Below, piece by piece: positions 6,565 through 29,660 of a DNA stretch of 64,000 bases. The notes beneath the pieces were generated by a model. The model ran no database searches. It saw only the letters and a program-made list of their open reading frames with translations, and was not told where the DNA came from. Each line of letters opens with the position of its first letter. Position 1 is the first letter of the stretch. Position numbers and translations under genes: made by a program. The DNA is from Eledone cirrhosa (Eukaryota), in contig OZ024740.1 of assembly GCA_964016885.1 (NCBI GenBank), positions 435,426,001-435,490,000 of the forward strand. Reading direction: 5' to 3'.

Positions 6565-6612
6565 CAACTCCTGCAGTTCTGGCACTTAATCCAGCTTCTG
6601 GAGAGAAATAAT

Positions 6613-9406
6613 TGCTTCTACTTTTGGCACAAGGCCAGCAATTACCCAGTGCATTACTGGTACTTTATTTTATCGACCCCATAAGGATGAATGGCAAAGT
6701 TAACCTCGGCGGGATTTGAACTCAGACCGTAAAGGGACGTAACTATGCTGGAAAGCATGACGTCCGACCCTCTACCGATACTGCCAATCCACCGCACTAA
6801 CATGGCGTCTGACCCCCTACCGATACTGCCAATCTACTGCCTTAACATGGCGTCCAAACCTCAACCAGTACTGCCAATCTACCACCTTAACATGGCGTCC
6901 GAGCCTCTACCGATACTGCCAATCTACCACCCTGACATGGCGTCCGAACCTCAACCGATACTGCCAATCTACCACCCTAACATGGCGTCCAAACCTCAAC
7001 TGGTACTGCCAATCTACCACCCTAGCATGGCGTCCAAACCTCAACTGGTACTGCCAATCTACCACCCTGACATGGCGTCCAAACCTCAACTGGTACTGCC
7101 AATCTACCACCCTGACATGGCGTCCAAACCTCAACTGGTACTGCCAATCTACCACCCTGACATGGCGTCCAAACCTCAACTGGTACTGCCAATCTACCAC
7201 CCTGACATGGCGTCCAAACCTCAACTGGTACTGCCAATCTACCACCCTGACATGGCGTCCAAACCTCAACTGGTACTGCCAATCTACCAACCTGACATGG
7301 CGTCCAAACCTCAACCAGTACTGCCAATCTACCACCCTGACATGGCGTCCAAACCTTAACTGGTACTGCCAATCTACCACCCTGACATGGCGTCCAAACC
7401 TCAACTGGTACTGCCAATCTACCACCCTGACATGGCGTCCAAACCTCAACTGGTACTGCCAATCTACCACCCTGACATGACGTCCAAACCTCAACTGGTA
7501 CTGCCAATCTACCACCCTGACATGGCGTCCAAACCTCAACTGGTACTGCCAATCTACCACCCTGACATGGCGTCCAAACCTCAACTGGTACTGCCAATCT
7601 ACCACCCTGACATGGCGTCCAAACCTCAACTGGTACTGCCAATCTACCACCCTGACATGGCGTCCAAACCTCAACTGGTACTGCCAATCTACCACCCTGA
7701 CATGGCGTCCAAACCTCAACTGGTACTGCCAATCTACCACCCTGACATGGCGTCCAAACCTCAACTGGTACTGCCAATCTACCACCCTGACATGGCGTCC
7801 AAACCTTAACTGGTACTGCCAATCTACCACCCTAACATGGCGTCCAAACCTCAACTGGTACTGCCAATCTACCACCCTGACATGGCGTCCAAACCTCAAC
7901 CGGTACTGCCAATCTACCACCCTAACATGGCGTCCAAACCTCAACTGGTACTGCCAATCTACCACCCTGACATGGCGTCCAAACCTCAACTGGTACTGCT
8001 AATCTACCGCCCTAACATGGCATCCAAACCTCAACTGGTACTGCCAATCTACCACCCTGACATGGCGTCCAAACCTCAACCGGTACTGCCAATCTACCAC
8101 CCTAACATGGCGTCCAAACCTCAACTGGTACTGCCAATCTACCACCCTAACATGGCGTCCAAACCTCAACTGGTACTGCCAATCTACCACCCTAACATGA
8201 CGTCCAAACCTCAACTGGTACTGCCAATCTACCGCCCTAACATGGCATCCAAACCTCAACTGGTACTGCCAATCTACCACCCTGACATGGCGTCCAAACC
8301 TCAACTGGTACTGCCAATCTACCACCCTAACATGGCGTCCAAACCTCAACTGGTACTGCCAATCTACCACCCTAACATGGCGTCCAAACCTCAACTGGTA
8401 CTGCCAATCTACCACCCTAACATGGCGTCCAAACCTCAACTGGTACTGCCAATCTACCACCCTAACATGGCGTCCAAACCTCAACTGGTACTGCCAATCT
8501 ACCACCCTGACATGGCGTCCAGACCTCAACTGGTACTGCCAATCTACCACCCTGACATGGCGTCCAAACCTCAACTGGTACTGCCAATCTACCACCCTAA
8601 CATGGCGTCCAAACCTCAACTGGTACTGCCAATCTACCACCCTGACATGGCGTCCAAACCTCAACTGGTACTGCCAATCTACCACCCTAACATGGCGTCC
8701 AAACCTCAACTGGTACTGCCAATCTACCACCCTAACATGGCGTCCAAACCTCAACTGGTACTGCCAATCTACCACCCTGACATGGCGTCCAAACCTCAAC
8801 TGGTACTGCCAATCTACCACCCTAACATGGCGTCCAAACCTCAACTGGTACTGCCAATCTACCACCCTGACATGGCGTCCAAACCTCAACTGGTACTGCC
8901 AATCTACCACCCTAACATGGCGTCCAAACCTCAACTGGTACTGCCAATCTACCACCCTAACATGGCGTCCAAACCTCAACTGGTACTGCCAATCTACCAC
9001 CCTGACATGGCGTCCAAACCTCAACTGGTACTGCCAATCTACCACCCTGACATGGCGTCCAAACCTCAACTGGTACTGCCAATCTACCGCCCTAACATGG
9101 CATCCAAACCTCAACTGGTACTGCCAATCTACCACCCTAACATGGCATCCAAACCTCAACTGGTACTGCCAATCTACCACCCTAACATGGCATCCAAACC
9201 TCAACTGGTACTGCCAATCTACCACCCTGACATGGCGTCCAAACCTCAACTGGTACTGCCAATCTACCACCCTAACATGGCATCCAAACCTCAACTGGTA
9301 CTGCCAATCTACCACCCTGACATGGCGTCCAAACCTCAACTGGTACTGCCAATCTACCACCCTAACATGGCGTCCAAACCTCAACTGGTACTGCCAATCT
9401 ACCGCC
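6613..9406 (-). mobile_element. tRNA-derived SINE with tandemly amplified 5' head, 18-bp TSD
   Basis: B box GAGTTCAAATCC (minus, 6712-6723) and A box TGGCAGTATCGG; body homologous to 27665-27807; TSD CTTCTGGAGAGAAATAAT at 6595-6612 and 9407-9424. Confidence 0.9.
6756..9406 (-). repeat. 45-bp minisatellite (~59 units) made of the SINE A-box head
   Basis: Unit CATGGCGTCCAAACCTCAACTGGTACTGCCAATCTACCACCCT(G/A)A; the innermost unit is the SINE 5' end. Confidence 0.95.
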
Positions 9407-9484
9407 CTTCTGGAGAGAAATAATAATGTAAAGAAATGTACAAAAATAACAATGACACATTTATGATGTAGTTAGTAAAGGTAT

Positions 9485-13030: not shown

Positions 13031-13100
13031 AAATTGCAAGCATTTAAGCCATTACCATCCTATCTTTTTCACGTTATTTATGTAAGACTATATTATTCAG

Positions 13101-15050
13101 AAGAGTGGTAGAGTGGTTAGAACGTTGGATAGAATGGTAGTGTTTAGAACGTCAGATAGAATGGTAGAGTGGTTAGAATGTTGGATAGAATGGTAGAGTG
13201 GTTAGAACGTCAGATAGAATGGTAGAGTGGTTAGAATGTTGGATAGAATGGTAGAGTGGTTAGAACGTCAGATAGAATGGTAGAGTTGTTAGAACGTCAT
13301 ATAGAATGGTAGTGGTTAAAACATCATATAGAATGGTAGTGGTTAAACGTCATATAGAATGGTAGAGTGGTTAGAACATCGGATAGAATGGTAGAGTGGT
13401 TAGAACATCGGATAGAATGGTAGAGTGGTTAGAACATCGGATAGAATGGTAGAGTGGTTAGAACGTTGGATAGAATGGTAGAGTGGTTAGAACGTTGGAT
13501 AGAATGGTAGAGTGGTTAGAATGTTGGATAGAATGGTAGAGTGGTTAGAACATTGGATAGAATGGTAGAGTTGTTAGAACGTCAGATAGAATGGTAGAGT
13601 GGTTAGAACGTCATATAGAATGGTAGAGTGGTTAGAACGTCAGATAGAATGGTAGAGTGGTTTGAACGTTGGATAGAACGGTAGATTGGTTAGAACGTTG
13701 GATAGAATGGTAGTGGTTAGAATGGTAGTGTTTAGAACGTCAGATAGAATGGTAGAGTGGTTAGAACATCGGATAGAATGGTAGAGTGGTTAGAACGTCA
13801 GATAGAATGGTAGTGGTTAGAACGTCAGATAGAATGGTAGAGCGGTTAGAACGTCGGATAGAATGGTAGAGTGGTTAGAACGTCAGATAGAATGGTAGAG
13901 TTGTTAGAACGTCATATAGAATGGTAGAGTTGTTAGAACGTCATATAGAATGGTAGAGTTGTTAGAACGTCATATAGAATGGTAGAGTTGTTAGAACGTC
14001 AGATAGAATGGTAGAGTGGTTAGAACGTCAGATAGAATGGTAGAGTGGTTAGAACGTCAGATAGAATGGTAGAGTTGTTAGAACGTCATATAGAATGGTA
14101 GAGTTGTTAGAACGTCAGATAGAATGGTAGAGTTGTTAGAACGTCAGATAGAATGGTAGAGTGGTTAGAACGTCAGATAGAATAGTAGAGTTGTTAGAAT
14201 GTCATATAGAATGGTAGAGTGGTTAGAACGTCAGATAGAATGGTAGAGTGGTTAGAACGTCGGATAGAATGGTAGAGTGGTTAGAACGTCAGATAGAATA
14301 GTAGAGTTGTTAGAATGTCATATAGAATGGTAGAGTGGTTAGAACGTCAGATAGAATGGTAGAGTGGTTAGAACGTCAGATAGAATGGTAGAGTGGTTAG
14401 AACGTCAGATAGAATAGTAGAGTTGTTAGAATGTCATATAGAATGGTAGAGTGGTTAGAACGTCAGATAGAATGGTAGAGTGGTTAGAACGTCAGATAGA
14501 ATGGTAGAGTGGTTAGAACGTCAGATAGAATGGTAGAGTGGTTAGAACGTCAGATAGAATGGTAGAGTGGTTAGAACGTCAGATAGAATGGTAGAGTGGT
14601 TAGAACGTCAGATAGAATGGTAGAGTAGTTAGAACGTCGGATAGAATGGTAGAGTGGTTAGAACGTCGGATAGAATGGTAGAGTGGTTAGAACGTCAGAT
14701 AGAATGGTAGAGTTGTTAGAACGTCATATAGAATGGTAGAGTTGTTAGAACGTCAGATAGAATGGTAGAGTGGTTAGAACGTCAGATAGAATGGTAGAGT
14801 GGTTAGAACGTCAGATAGAATAGTAGAGTTGTTAGAATGTCATATAGAATGGTAGAGTGGTTAGAACGTCAGATAGAATGGTAGAGTGGTTAGAACGTCG
14901 GATAGAATGGTAGAGTGGTTAGAACGTCAGATAGAATAGTAGAGTTGTTAGAATGTCATATAGAATGGTAGAGTGGTTAGAACGTCAGATAGAATGGTAG
15001 AGTGGTTAGAACGTCAGATAGAATGGTACAGTGGTTAGAACGTCAGATAG
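13101..15050 (+). repeat. 29-bp minisatellite (~67 units) resembling a tRNA/SINE A-box head
   Basis: Unit AGAATGGTAGAGTGGTTAGAACGTC(A/G)GAT. Confidence 0.95.
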
Positions 15051-15229
15051 AGGCATCTTTTAAAATAACAAAACAAGAAAGTTGCATATCTCTGTCTACA
15101 CCCCCCCCCCCCCCCCCCCCTTCACACACATATACACACCAGAGAGTATACAATATGTGACTTGCTGTGTGTGTATGTGAACCAACCTGCACTCATGACT
15201 CCAGATAAACCAACCCACCCTCCGAACAT

Positions 15230-26835: not shown

Positions 26836-27130
26836 GGTGGAGGTACTGTAGTGGAACTGGTGTGGTGGAGGTTAAAGTGTCATATATAATACTTTAAGTA
26901 GGATTATTTCAGAAAATATTTGTTGTTTCTTTTGACCCCCCACCCCCCCGTTTCTCAGGTCCACCCAGAACCAGCATACCTATAGTCAAAGGTCAAGACC
27001 ATTTTATCTCTTGAGATGGTCAGCTGGCAATTGAGAGAGAGGAGATTTCACTACTGTTTCTAGCAGTGTGACCAACTGGTGAAATAATTAATAATTTTGG
27101 TAAATCCCTTAATATTCTTCATTAAGATAG

Positions 27131-27807
27131 GTGGACTGGCAGTATCGGTAGAGGGTCGGACACCATGCTAGGGCAGTGGACTGGCAGTATCGGTAGAGGG
27201 TCGGACACCATGCTAGGGCAGTGAACTGTCAGTATCGGTAGAGGGTCGGACACCATGCTAGGGCAGTGAACTGGCAGTATCGGTAGAGGGTCGGACACCA
27301 TGCTAGGGCAGTGAACTGGTAGTATCGGTAGAGGGTCGGACACCATGCTAGGGCAGTGGACTGGTAGTATCAGTAGAGGGTCGGACACCATGCTAGGGCA
27401 GTGAACTGGCAGTATCGGTAGAGGGTCGGACACCATGCTAGGGCAGTGAACTGGCAGTATCGGTAGAGGGTCGGACACCATGCTAGGGCAGTGGACTGGT
27501 AGTATCGGTAGAGGGTCGGACACCATGCTAGGGCAGTGAACTGGCAGTATCGGTAGAGGGTCGGACACCATGCTAGGGCAGTGAACTGGCAGTATCGGTA
27601 GAGGGTCGGACACCATGCTAGGGCAGTGGACTGGCAGTATCGGTAGAGGGTCGGACACCATGCTTTGACTCAAACAGTTACACCCCTTCCCATTCTGAGT
27701 TCAAATCCCACCGAGTTTAACTTTGCCTTTCATCCTTACGGGGTCAATGAAATAAAGTACCGGTCATGTACTGGGTTATTGCTGGCCTTGTGCCAAAAGT
27801 AGAAACA
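27131..27807 (+). mobile_element. tRNA-derived SINE with 12 tandem 45-bp A-box heads, 10-bp TSD
   Basis: Unit GTG(G/A)ACTGGCAGTATCGGTAGAGGGTCGGACACCATGCTAGGGCA over 27131-27664; last A box 27632-27643; B box GAGTTCAAATCC 27697-27708; TSD ATTAAGATAG at 27121-27130 and 27808-27817. Confidence 0.92.
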
Positions 27808-27866
27808 ATTAAGATAGTGTATTTCATTAGGAATGCAATCATGAAAAGGTTAAAGCAATGTGTATT

Positions 27867-28060: not shown

Positions 28061-29660
28061 GATTGACGAATATAGGGTCCAAGAGGCGATCAAGGAAATG
28101 AAAAATGGTAAGGCTGCTGGATCATCGGGGATAGTTGCTGAGATGCTGAAGGCATCAGGGGACGTAGGCACTAAACTGGTTGCACGCATCATCAATCAGG
28201 CTATATATGGTGGTGTCATACCCAAAGACTGGTGCAGCAGTATTCTCATAAATTGCTACAAAGGTAAAGGGGATGCTTTGGAGAGGAGTAATTATATGGG
28301 TATAAAACTGATGGATCAGGTTATGAAAGTGGCAGAAAGGATATTAGCACAACTAATTAGAGAAAGGGTCAAACTAGATGAGATGCAGTCTGGTTTTGTG
28401 CCTAGGAAGAGTACAACAGAGGCCCTCTTCTTGGTGAGACAATTACAAGAGAGGTTCTTAGAGAAAAATAAGCCACTATACTTAGCCTTTGTTGACCTAG
28501 AGAAGGCCTTTGATAGGGTACCCCGATCTGTCATCTAGTGGTCCCTAAGGAAGCTCGGTGTTGAGGAATGGCTTGTGAGGACAGTGCAAACTTTGTACAG
28601 AGGTACTCTCAGTAAAGTCAGGGTAGGAATGGAGTTTAGTGAGGAATTCCAGATACAAGTAGGAGTACATCAGGGTTCGGTCCTCAGCCTGCTCTTGTTC
28701 ATTATAGTCCTCCAAGCCATATCAGAGGAGTTTAAGACTGGCTGTCCATGGGAACTTCTCTATGCTGACGATCTGGTTCTTATAGCAGAATAAGTAGAGG
28801 AGCTAGAGAATAAATTCTGGCTATGGAAACAGCAGTGGGAATCAAGAGGATTTAGAGTGAACCTAGCTAAGACAAAACTCTGATTCCGTCAGGGAAATGG
28901 CCATGTTCGATATGCAGAAAAGGAACTGGCATAAATTCTATAAAATGCACACAATGCAGATCCTGGGTACACAAGAGATGTAGTGGAATAGCAGGCAAAC
29001 TAACAGGTAGGGAGAAATATGTATGCAGTAGATGTATAGGGAAATTAGACAGTAAAAGTCGCATTGATAGACACATTTTTCAAATGCAGGCGGGTGCTAT
29101 AGAAGCAGTTGATAGCTTCTGGTACCTAGGAGATCAGATTAGCATGGGAGGGGGGGTGTTCCGAGGCCATAGTATCTAGAAAGGGACGGGTTGGAAGAAG
29201 TTTAGGGAGGTGCTTCCTCTGCTGACGAAGAAGGGTTTCTCCCTGCGTACGAAAGGCCGGTTATATGATGCCTGCATGAGATGCGCGATGCTGCATGGTA
29301 GTGAGACATGGGCAGCAACTGCAGAGGACATGCGACGGCTGGAGAGAAATGAGGCAAGCATGCTCCGTTGGATGTGCAGTGTAAATGTGCATGTACGACC
29401 CAGCATGAATGTGTTGAGAGAGAAACTGTGTCTGAAAGGGATAGAATGTAGAGTACGGGAGAGGAGACTGAGGTGGTATGGACATGTGATGCGCATGTAG
29501 ACCACGAAAAACATGGGCAGAGGTGGTGAGAACAGACCTCAGATCATTGAAGCTCACGGTGGAGATGACGAAGGACCGTGACAAGTGGAGAGATGCTGTG
29601 CTGAATAAGACCCGTCCCACCCTTGCAAGCAGGGAAGAGCAGACGTAAAATGATGATGAT
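28061..29660 (+). mobile_element. RTE-clade LINE, 5'-truncated, degenerate RT plus PHD-type finger, (GAT)n tail
   Basis: MKNGKAAG..YKGKGD..FVDLEKAFDRVP..GVHQGSVLS..LLYADDL..RLRWYGHVMRM; stops at 28536 and 28791, frameshifts; ends GACGTAAAATGATGATGAT. Confidence 0.95.

What the first reader, a model, noticed from the sequence alone, without database searches (positions are those of the whole stretch)
27121..27817. Second independent SINE copy with the same 45-bp head period and junction: a multi-headed SINE that seeds minisatellites
Opposite strand, different TSD and diverged unit sequence, yet the same period and the same ..CATG(C/T)(T/C)|AGGG.. junction as at 6756-9406. This implies a reproducible process. 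One option is a master with duplicated heads, propagated when TFIIIC pairs the B box with an upstream A box and then expanded locally. Another is reiterative, telomerase-like copying of the RNA 5' end by the partner RT. The recurrence is observed; both mechanisms are inference. This is my best candidate for an undescribed system in the window.
Basis: partly seen in the sequence, partly recalled or inferred. Interest (0 to 1): 0.75.

Follow-up and report, generated by a model that had tools for sequence, protein, structure and literature searches.

The report
SINE-head minisatellite passed between neighbouring copies
The first 45 bases of a very common short jumping element are repeated 12 times inside this copy and, with the same joint, inside over a hundred other copies, mostly near chromosome ends; the repeats likely pass between nearby copies by DNA repair rather than by the element's own copying.

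Summary
Confirmed: 27121-27817 is one TSD-bounded SINE with 12 tandem 45-bp heads and the same junction as the 59-head copy at 6595-9424. It is a genome-wide pattern: 107 of 123 stored arrays have period 45, on at least six body types, while most of the family (76,509 pattern matches) is single-headed. Arrays sit near contig ends (25 of 25 listed loci) while single copies do not (3 of 18). Rare unit variants are shared by arrays under 5 Mb apart whatever their body type (0.19 versus 0.013). One private 50-bp junction occurs in six arrays within 3.5 Mb, on two body types. Best reading: the junction arose rarely, likely spreads by ectopic DNA exchange between SINE heads, then expands locally. 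The seeding step is inferred, and no donor was found for this copy. It is a variant of the SINE-derived satellites described in reptiles. This scan reported the same phenomenon earlier at other loci of this genome.

The parts
27121..27130 (+). 5' target-site duplication ATTAAGATAG
   Evidence: identical copy at 27808-27817
27131..27169 (+). first head, 5'-truncated (starts at head position 6-7), directly after the TSD
27170..27619 (+). ten complete internal 45-bp heads, junction CATGCT|AGGG; all carry the locus variants G6A, T12C, G38A
27620..27664 (+). body-adjacent head with A-box-like motif at 27632-27643 (consensus recalled); in young single copies the head is the predicted 5' arm of an RNA hairpin
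27665..27807 (+). single SINE body and tail (TTGACG type; 12 differences in 147 from a young copy); B-box-like motif at 27697-27708 (consensus recalled)
27808..27817 (+). 3' target-site duplication
6595..9424 (-). second copy in the window: 18-bp TSD, 59 heads of 45 bp (6754-9408), TTCCAG-type body

Best explanation
This is one retrotransposed SINE copy whose 45-bp head is repeated 12 times; it likely inserted with a single truncated head, likely received the head-to-head junction from another array by ectopic DNA exchange, and then likely expanded and homogenised in place. Shown: one TSD, one body, the fixed junction, arrays on at least six body types, enrichment near contig ends, and sharing of rare unit variants between arrays a few megabases apart independent of body type. 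Inferred: (1) a junction first arises rarely, at insertion or by a DNA slip, near the top of the predicted RNA hairpin; (2) a break in a SINE head is repaired from a nearby array (strand invasion, or integration of an excised circle), which adds units but keeps the recipient's TSD, 5' end and body; (3) slippage and unequal exchange then change copy number; (4) steps 2-3 run fastest in distal, presumably high-recombination regions. No function is indicated.
For: Position: 25 of 25 strict-junction loci listed on C1 and C2 lie within 55 Mb of an end (cut-off chosen afterwards), against 3 of 18 best single-copy matches on C1-C4 (Fisher p=5e-9); the first 100 head-body matches span 14 Mb of distal C1 (7 per Mb; genome mean 25.5), so the family is not denser there. 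Distance decay over 107 arrays, indels and non-CpG transversions only: similarity 0.19 under 5 Mb (182 pairs), 0.094 at 5-20 Mb, 0.011 beyond, 0.013 between contigs; 0.124 versus 0.010 for pairs of different body type; permutation within size and body strata p=0.0005, also without the left 25 Mb of C1; same-body-type share is flat, 0.31 versus 0.32. Private marker: the 50-bp junction TTTGTA|AGGG has 125 matches; the 100 listed all lie at C2 18.4-21.9 Mb, and up to 22 of the other 25 are in the array at 21.96 Mb. Six arrays carry it; two consist only of such units on TTGACG bodies, three carry them mixed with 45-bp units on TTGCAGCAA bodies, one has no body. Mosaics: single TTCTAG-type copies carry C33T (10 of 10) and G10A (7 of 10), but 2 of 3 arrays on TTCTAG-starting bodies lack both in the four heads shown for each. 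First heads of arrays start like single heads (87 versus 130, p=0.91); 11 of 41 TSD-adjacent arrays start at position 5 or later yet have complete second heads. Bodies of arrays are scattered among single-head bodies (50 label changes, 214 rows).
Against: No donor was identified for this copy: its T12C variant is in all 12 heads, and the search for it was swamped by a very large array elsewhere; the neighbouring 59-head array has different variants and its best outside match is only 85%. Distance decay proves exchange between existing arrays; seeding of single-head copies is an inference, since the pure 50-bp arrays could be older arrays overwritten later. Near pairs with the same body type are more alike than near pairs with different types (0.44 versus 0.21 under 1 Mb), and the four 40-bp arrays on distal C3 all have TTGCAGCA bodies, which a local source element would also give. 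The tree shows more clustering than shuffles (50 changes versus 68; 0 of 500), though my samples were chosen by similarity and the tree is poorly resolved. Some 45-bp arrays are interior (C1 84.4 Mb, C3 286 Mb, C4 75.8 and 182.6 Mb). Known Alu conversion acts within about 10 kb (PMC8230782, passages), far shorter than the megabases here. Recombination rates were not measured.
Confidence: 0.62

Rival explanations
1. Recurrent RT template jump: the SINE RNA hairpin is cut, or Pol III stops, at the loop (position 45); the LINE RT jumps from the 5' end of a full RNA onto this 5' arm, giving the same junction at many insertions; arrays then expand and exchange units locally.
For: The head is exactly the predicted 5' arm of a hairpin whose loop starts at position 45 (RNA z -2.8, -2.8, -3.55 for three of four heads tested; consensus fold). 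One-off dimers inside a single TSD exist with junctions at other positions, several with 1-3 extra bases. Explains truncated first heads and many body types.
Against: No junction with 1-2 extra T (46-47 bp) among CpG-intact matches, as ragged Pol III ends would give. No strict 45-bp junction is listed in C1 39-388 Mb or C2 40-392 Mb, whereas one-off junctions are found in such interiors (C1 271, C2 240, C3 197 and 241 Mb). 0 of 29 predicted pairs show compensatory change.
Confidence: 0.15
2. Multi-headed master: one or several source copies with duplicated heads are transcribed from an upstream A box and retrotranspose; arrays then grow locally.
For: Fixed junction; complete and truncated first heads; body label more clustered than shuffles; four 40-bp arrays share a body type and the A20G variant.
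Against: Needs a separate master in at least six body types with one junction; one set of identical bodies includes both single and multi-head copies; does not explain the distal position or megabase-scale clustering of private junctions; heads of two arrays do not match their body's subfamily.
Confidence: 0.12
3. Telomerase-like reiterative copying of the RNA 5' end by the partner RT, giving many identical units at birth.
For: Some short arrays are uniform: 4 of 100 arrays with three or more heads have identical non-first units.
Against: Position 46 onward (TTG/TTC) does not repeat the 5' end (AGG), so there is no realignment register; 96 of 100 arrays are mixed; position bias and local variant sharing are unexplained; arrays reach 703 heads.
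Confidence: 0.04
4. Independent local DNA duplication at each locus, guided by short homology or a DNA hairpin, in a region that turns any sequence into minisatellites.
For: Minisatellites cover 45% of 464 kb around the window and 20% of 80 kb of interior samples; units of this copy are locally homogenised.
Against: Cannot supply head positions 1-6 where the first head is truncated at the TSD, as here and in 11 of 41 arrays; flanks differ, so junctions should vary; DNA hairpin is weak (z -0.4 to -2.2 for young heads, +0.9 for this copy).
Confidence: 0.06

Closest known systems
SINE-derived satellites (sSat1-3) of squamate reptiles, Vassetzky, Kosushkin and Ryskov 2023, PMC10702118 (read parts 1-4 of 5: abstract, results, discussion, start of methods; supplements not read)
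   Same: Tandem units cut from part of a tRNA-type SINE, still joined to the rest of the element; one dominant unit at hundreds to thousands of loci plus rare variants; a few to hundreds of units; subtelomeric bias while the SINE itself is evenly spread; alternating subvariants.
   Different: Unit here is 45 bp (theirs about 70-290) and begins exactly at the element's 5' end; arrays sit between intact TSDs with a complete body; several body subfamilies carry one junction. In the parts read they propose duplication, amplification and concerted evolution but do not test spread between loci by distance or private markers.
TE-derived minisatellites in human, Ahmed and Liang 2012, PMC3389668 (read parts 2-3 of 4)
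   Same: Multilocus TE-derived arrays; local expansion; 136 cases of a partial Alu duplicated at the 5' end of a full Alu.
   Different: Mostly two or three units, no single dominant junction, no genomic hotspots reported.
Non-allelic gene conversion among Alu SINEs, Doronina et al. 2021, PMC8230782 (passages only)
   Same: Unidirectional DNA-level transfer between dispersed SINE copies, stronger between neighbours, giving hybrid elements.
   Different: Reported range about 10 kb and substitutions only; here the signal spans megabases and the transferred feature would add repeat units.
Mouse VNTR family expanded from B1 SINEs (Bois et al. 1998; seen only as a table row and reference in PMC9659126, passages)
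   Same: A family of tandem repeats grown inside many copies of one SINE.
   Different: Unit is 6 bp and grows from a dimer already in the consensus; here the consensus has no such repeat.
Dimeric SINEs such as Alu (mentioned in PMC10702118) and octopus tRNA-derived SINEs of Ohshima and Okada 1994 (seen only as a reference in PMC4758252; family names recalled)
   Same: Duplicated heads; A- and B-box layout; my recollection is that this family resembles the octopus SINEs.
   Different: True dimeric SINEs have a fixed head number and move as a unit; here head number runs from 1 to 703. No sequence comparison with the octopus families was possible.

Membership tests
tRNA-type SINE | Short, interspersed, high copy number, variable TSDs, 5' truncation | tested here: met
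   About 192 bp; 76,509 pattern matches; differing TSDs and 5' starts
tRNA-type SINE | Head derived from tRNA with Pol III A and B boxes | tested here: inconclusive
   A- and B-box-like motifs present (consensus recalled); ARAGORN finds no tRNA in the window and Rfam gives no tRNA match for a young copy
tRNA-type SINE | Pol III transcription and a LINE-derived tail | not testable with these tools
   No expression data were available; the tail has no match elsewhere in the window, including the decayed RT element beside it
SINE-derived satellite (sSat) | Tandem unit shorter than the SINE, terminal unit continuing into the SINE, at least four middle monomers | tested here: met
   12 heads (10 middle) running into the body
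SINE-derived satellite (sSat) | One dominant unit variant at many loci | tested here: met
   Modal period 45 in 107 of 123 stored arrays, a sample biased toward 45; 1,166 strict matches versus 7 and 52 for shifted junctions
SINE-derived satellite (sSat) | Subtelomeric bias, unlike the parent SINE | tested here: met
   25 of 25 versus 3 of 18 within 55 Mb of contig ends; telomeres themselves not located
Dimeric or multi-headed SINE family | Fixed head number propagated from a master | tested here: not met
   2 to 703 heads in 107 complete arrays; 29 of 29 closest other copies single-headed
Dimeric or multi-headed SINE family | Multi-head copies form their own subfamily with diagnostic body changes | tested here: not met
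   Arrays on at least six body types; 50 label changes on a poorly resolved tree
Dimeric or multi-headed SINE family | Multi-head transcripts | not testable with these tools
   No expression data were available
Telomerase-like reiterative RT product | Template with a terminal repeat for realignment; identical units at birth | tested here: not met
   No repeat at position 46; 4 of 100 arrays uniform

The most novel reading that the evidence does not exclude
The head array behaves as a homing minisatellite: it codes for nothing and needs no RNA, but uses the tens of thousands of single-headed SINE copies as landing pads, converting them into new arrays over megabase distances near chromosome ends, with private junction variants marking each local outbreak; the unit ends at the loop of the element's predicted hairpin.
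Probability: 0.5. Interest if true: 0.65.

Novelty: new variant of a known kind. Interest (0 to 1): 0.45.

Why it matters
How a tandem-repeat family appears at many separate loci is an open step in satellite evolution. Here every array keeps a record of its host: TSD, 5' truncation point and body subfamily. Donor-derived units can therefore be told from the recipient, and private junctions (50-bp on C2, 40-bp on C3, 44-bp on C1) act as tracers. If seeding by ectopic exchange holds, dispersed SINEs are a ready-made network for satellite spread, and ectopic conversion becomes measurable along chromosomes. The locus itself looks neutral, and SINE-derived satellites are already known.

Tried and rejected
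Expression: no RNA holder listed; no evidence either way. Laying contigs confirmed the flank-to-head joint but could not give copy number; only contigs were available. Donor for this copy: the T12C junction pattern gave 225 matches, and the 100 listed came almost all from one very large array at C1 20.65-20.76 Mb, so it was uninformative; the search with units of the 59-head copy gave no outside match above 85%. tRNA identity: ARAGORN and Rfam negative. Hairpin covariation: 0 of 29 pairs; this copy has lost the predicted fold (z +0.77). Internal microhomology at position 46 as the cause of the 45-bp period: rejected. Pol III stop at the TTT as a recurrent source: no 46-47-bp junctions among CpG-intact matches. 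Coding role: open frames across the array are repeat translations only. A larger interior sample could not be obtained; the unbiased interior sample is 80 kb, 0 of 8 copies multi-headed, against 2 of 14 in 464 kb around the window, too small to test alone. My junction patterns only see downstream units that start at head position 1, so periods made by internal homology (such as 27 bp) were not counted. Literature: five searches listed no paper on this system in cephalopods or on interlocus spread of SINE-derived minisatellites; subscription journals are not covered, the octopus genome paper was not held, and no supplements were read.

Full report
Observation. Window 27121-27817 is one SINE copy between two copies of a 10-bp target-site duplication. 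It holds 12 heads in 45-bp register (11.9 copies, 97% matches), the first starting at head position 6-7, then one body. All heads carry T12C and G38A, and all complete heads G6A, relative to a young single copy, so the array is locally homogenised. The second copy (6595-9424, minus strand) has 59 heads, another TSD and a different body type, 85% identical. A short-read contig covers the flank and first head. The window is G000:C1:435,426,001-435,490,000, about 7 Mb from the end of a 443-Mb contig in a 3.0-Gb genome. That the animal is an octopus is my recollection of the SINE and an earlier AI note; it was not tested.

The family. A head-plus-body pattern has 76,509 matches. The 29 closest other copies are all single-headed, about 192 bp, with variable TSDs. 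A- and B-box-like motifs are present (consensus recalled), but ARAGORN and Rfam find no tRNA. The first 93 nt of young copies are predicted to fold as a long RNA hairpin whose 5' arm is the head and whose loop starts at position 45; there is no covariation support (0 of 29 pairs) and this copy has lost the fold.

Recurrence. A loose junction pattern has 8,310 matches, control 0. With CpG-intact anchors the 45-bp junction has 1,166 matches; junctions 1-13 bases later have 7 matches at 2 loci; earlier breakpoints have 52 matches, two of them 45-type junctions with a small deletion (a different left anchor, so the counts are only roughly comparable). Among 123 stored arrays the modal period is 45 in 107 (the sample is biased toward 45). 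The 100 listed matches fall in 28 loci; scaling up gives a few hundred loci, an extrapolation. Head number runs from 2 to 703 in 107 complete arrays. At least 5 of the first 100 head-body matches on distal C1 are arrays; 2 of 14 copies around the window and 0 of 8 in interior samples are.

The junction was not made from the local copy alone. The first head here lacks positions 1-6 and abuts the TSD, yet all internal heads have them. The same holds for 11 of 41 arrays with a clear adjacent TSD, one of them a 52-bp one-off (90 arrays examined, 49 with a non-simple TSD of 10 bp or more). So the junction came either with the RNA or later from another locus. First heads of arrays start at the same positions as single heads, which fits both.

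Tests between these routes. (a) Body type: arrays occur on at least six body types; on a tree of 214 bodies the label changes 50 times, fewer than shuffles (68), but no array-only group emerges and one identical set includes both kinds (few columns, samples chosen by similarity). (b) Position: 25 of 25 strict-junction loci on C1 and C2 lie within 55 Mb of an end, against 3 of 18 best single copies on C1-C4 (p=5e-9; cut-off set after seeing the data). One-off junctions lie in interiors, and a few 45-bp arrays do too. (c) Distance: over 107 arrays of four or more heads (110 before merging fragments; one duplicate contig dropped), sharing of indels and non-CpG transversions is 0.19 under 5 Mb, 0.094 at 5-20 Mb, 0.011 beyond and 0.013 between contigs; it holds for different body types and without the left end of C1, while body type shows no distance effect. 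(d) Private markers: a 50-bp junction occurs in six arrays within C2 18.4-22.0 Mb and in no listed place outside (100 of 125 matches listed); two arrays are made only of it and have a different body type from the 703-head array beside them. The one-base deletion giving 44-bp units is at 5% or more in 11 of 110 array records, 10 on the left end of C1. A 40-bp junction occurs at nine places, four on distal C3. (e) Mosaics: two arrays on TTCTAG bodies lack that subfamily's head variants; a third keeps C33T in its first and last heads.

Mechanism. Retrotransposition disperses copies across the genome and carries head and body together (established knowledge), so (b)-(e) point to DNA-level exchange. 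Most likely a junction arises rarely, is copied into other heads during break repair from a nearby array or by integration of an excised circle (I cannot separate these), and then expands locally. Exchange between existing arrays is well supported. Seeding of single-head copies is inferred from the pure 50-bp arrays, the mosaics and the scarcity of interior dimers. For this locus no donor was found. Against the reading: same-type neighbours are more alike than different-type neighbours, the C3 40-bp group shares a body type, and Alu conversion is reported to act over about 10 kb only (PMC8230782, passages). The RT-jump rival draws on the hairpin and on one-off dimers with extra bases; it may explain first origins.

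Comparison. This works like, and meets the tested features of, the SINE-derived satellites of squamates (PMC10702118, parts 1-4 of 5). It fails the tests for a multi-headed SINE family and for reiterative RT. Human TE-derived minisatellites include 5' partial Alu duplications (PMC3389668, parts 2-3 of 4). What differs is the intact TSD-bounded host and marker evidence for spread between loci. My reading was noted before I consulted earlier scan notes; several reach the same view at other loci of this genome. They are unreviewed AI notes and are not counted as support.

Verdict. Real, recurrent and correctly spotted; a new variant of a known kind; likely neutral; interest 0.45.

Noticed in passing
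window 13097-15051 and L417:6480-6720 (G000:C1 about 435,402,500): The window's 67-copy 29-bp array, with no SINE body beside it, matches at 96% a short 29-bp array inside the head of an older related SINE about 36 kb away; its right boundary is close to that of the 45-bp unit.
   Followed up: partly
G000:C2:392.29 Mb (L203) and C4:182.65 Mb (L066): Two loci share the same upstream flank. The C4 copy looks like the 5' end and heads of one SINE joined to the body of the next tandem SINE, so local deletion can move a head array onto another body type.
   Followed up: partly
G000:C2:21.853-21.886 Mb; C1:20.65-20.76 Mb; C1:6.53-6.63 Mb: Very large head arrays: 703 heads with higher-order blocks of 45- and 50-bp units, and arrays that appear to span about 100 kb. 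Likely donor reservoirs.
   Followed up: partly
L019 (G000:C24:4,647,156-4,647,943): Four whole SINE copies head to tail, about 197-bp period, separated by the same short target sequence.
   Followed up: no
window 28062-29540: Decayed non-LTR reverse transcriptase (Pfam RVT_1 in two of three fragments, broken by stops) just downstream of the locus; no shared tail with the SINE found.
   Followed up: partly
G000:C1:435.226-435.690 Mb: Minisatellites (period 10 or more, five or more copies) cover 45% of this 464-kb region and 20% of 80 kb of interior samples.
   Followed up: partly
L158, L185, L186, L127, L159: One-off head dimers, three with a clear single TSD, with junctions at positions about 29-50, some with 1-3 extra bases or using internal AGGG homology; candidates for insertion-time template switches.
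   Followed up: partly
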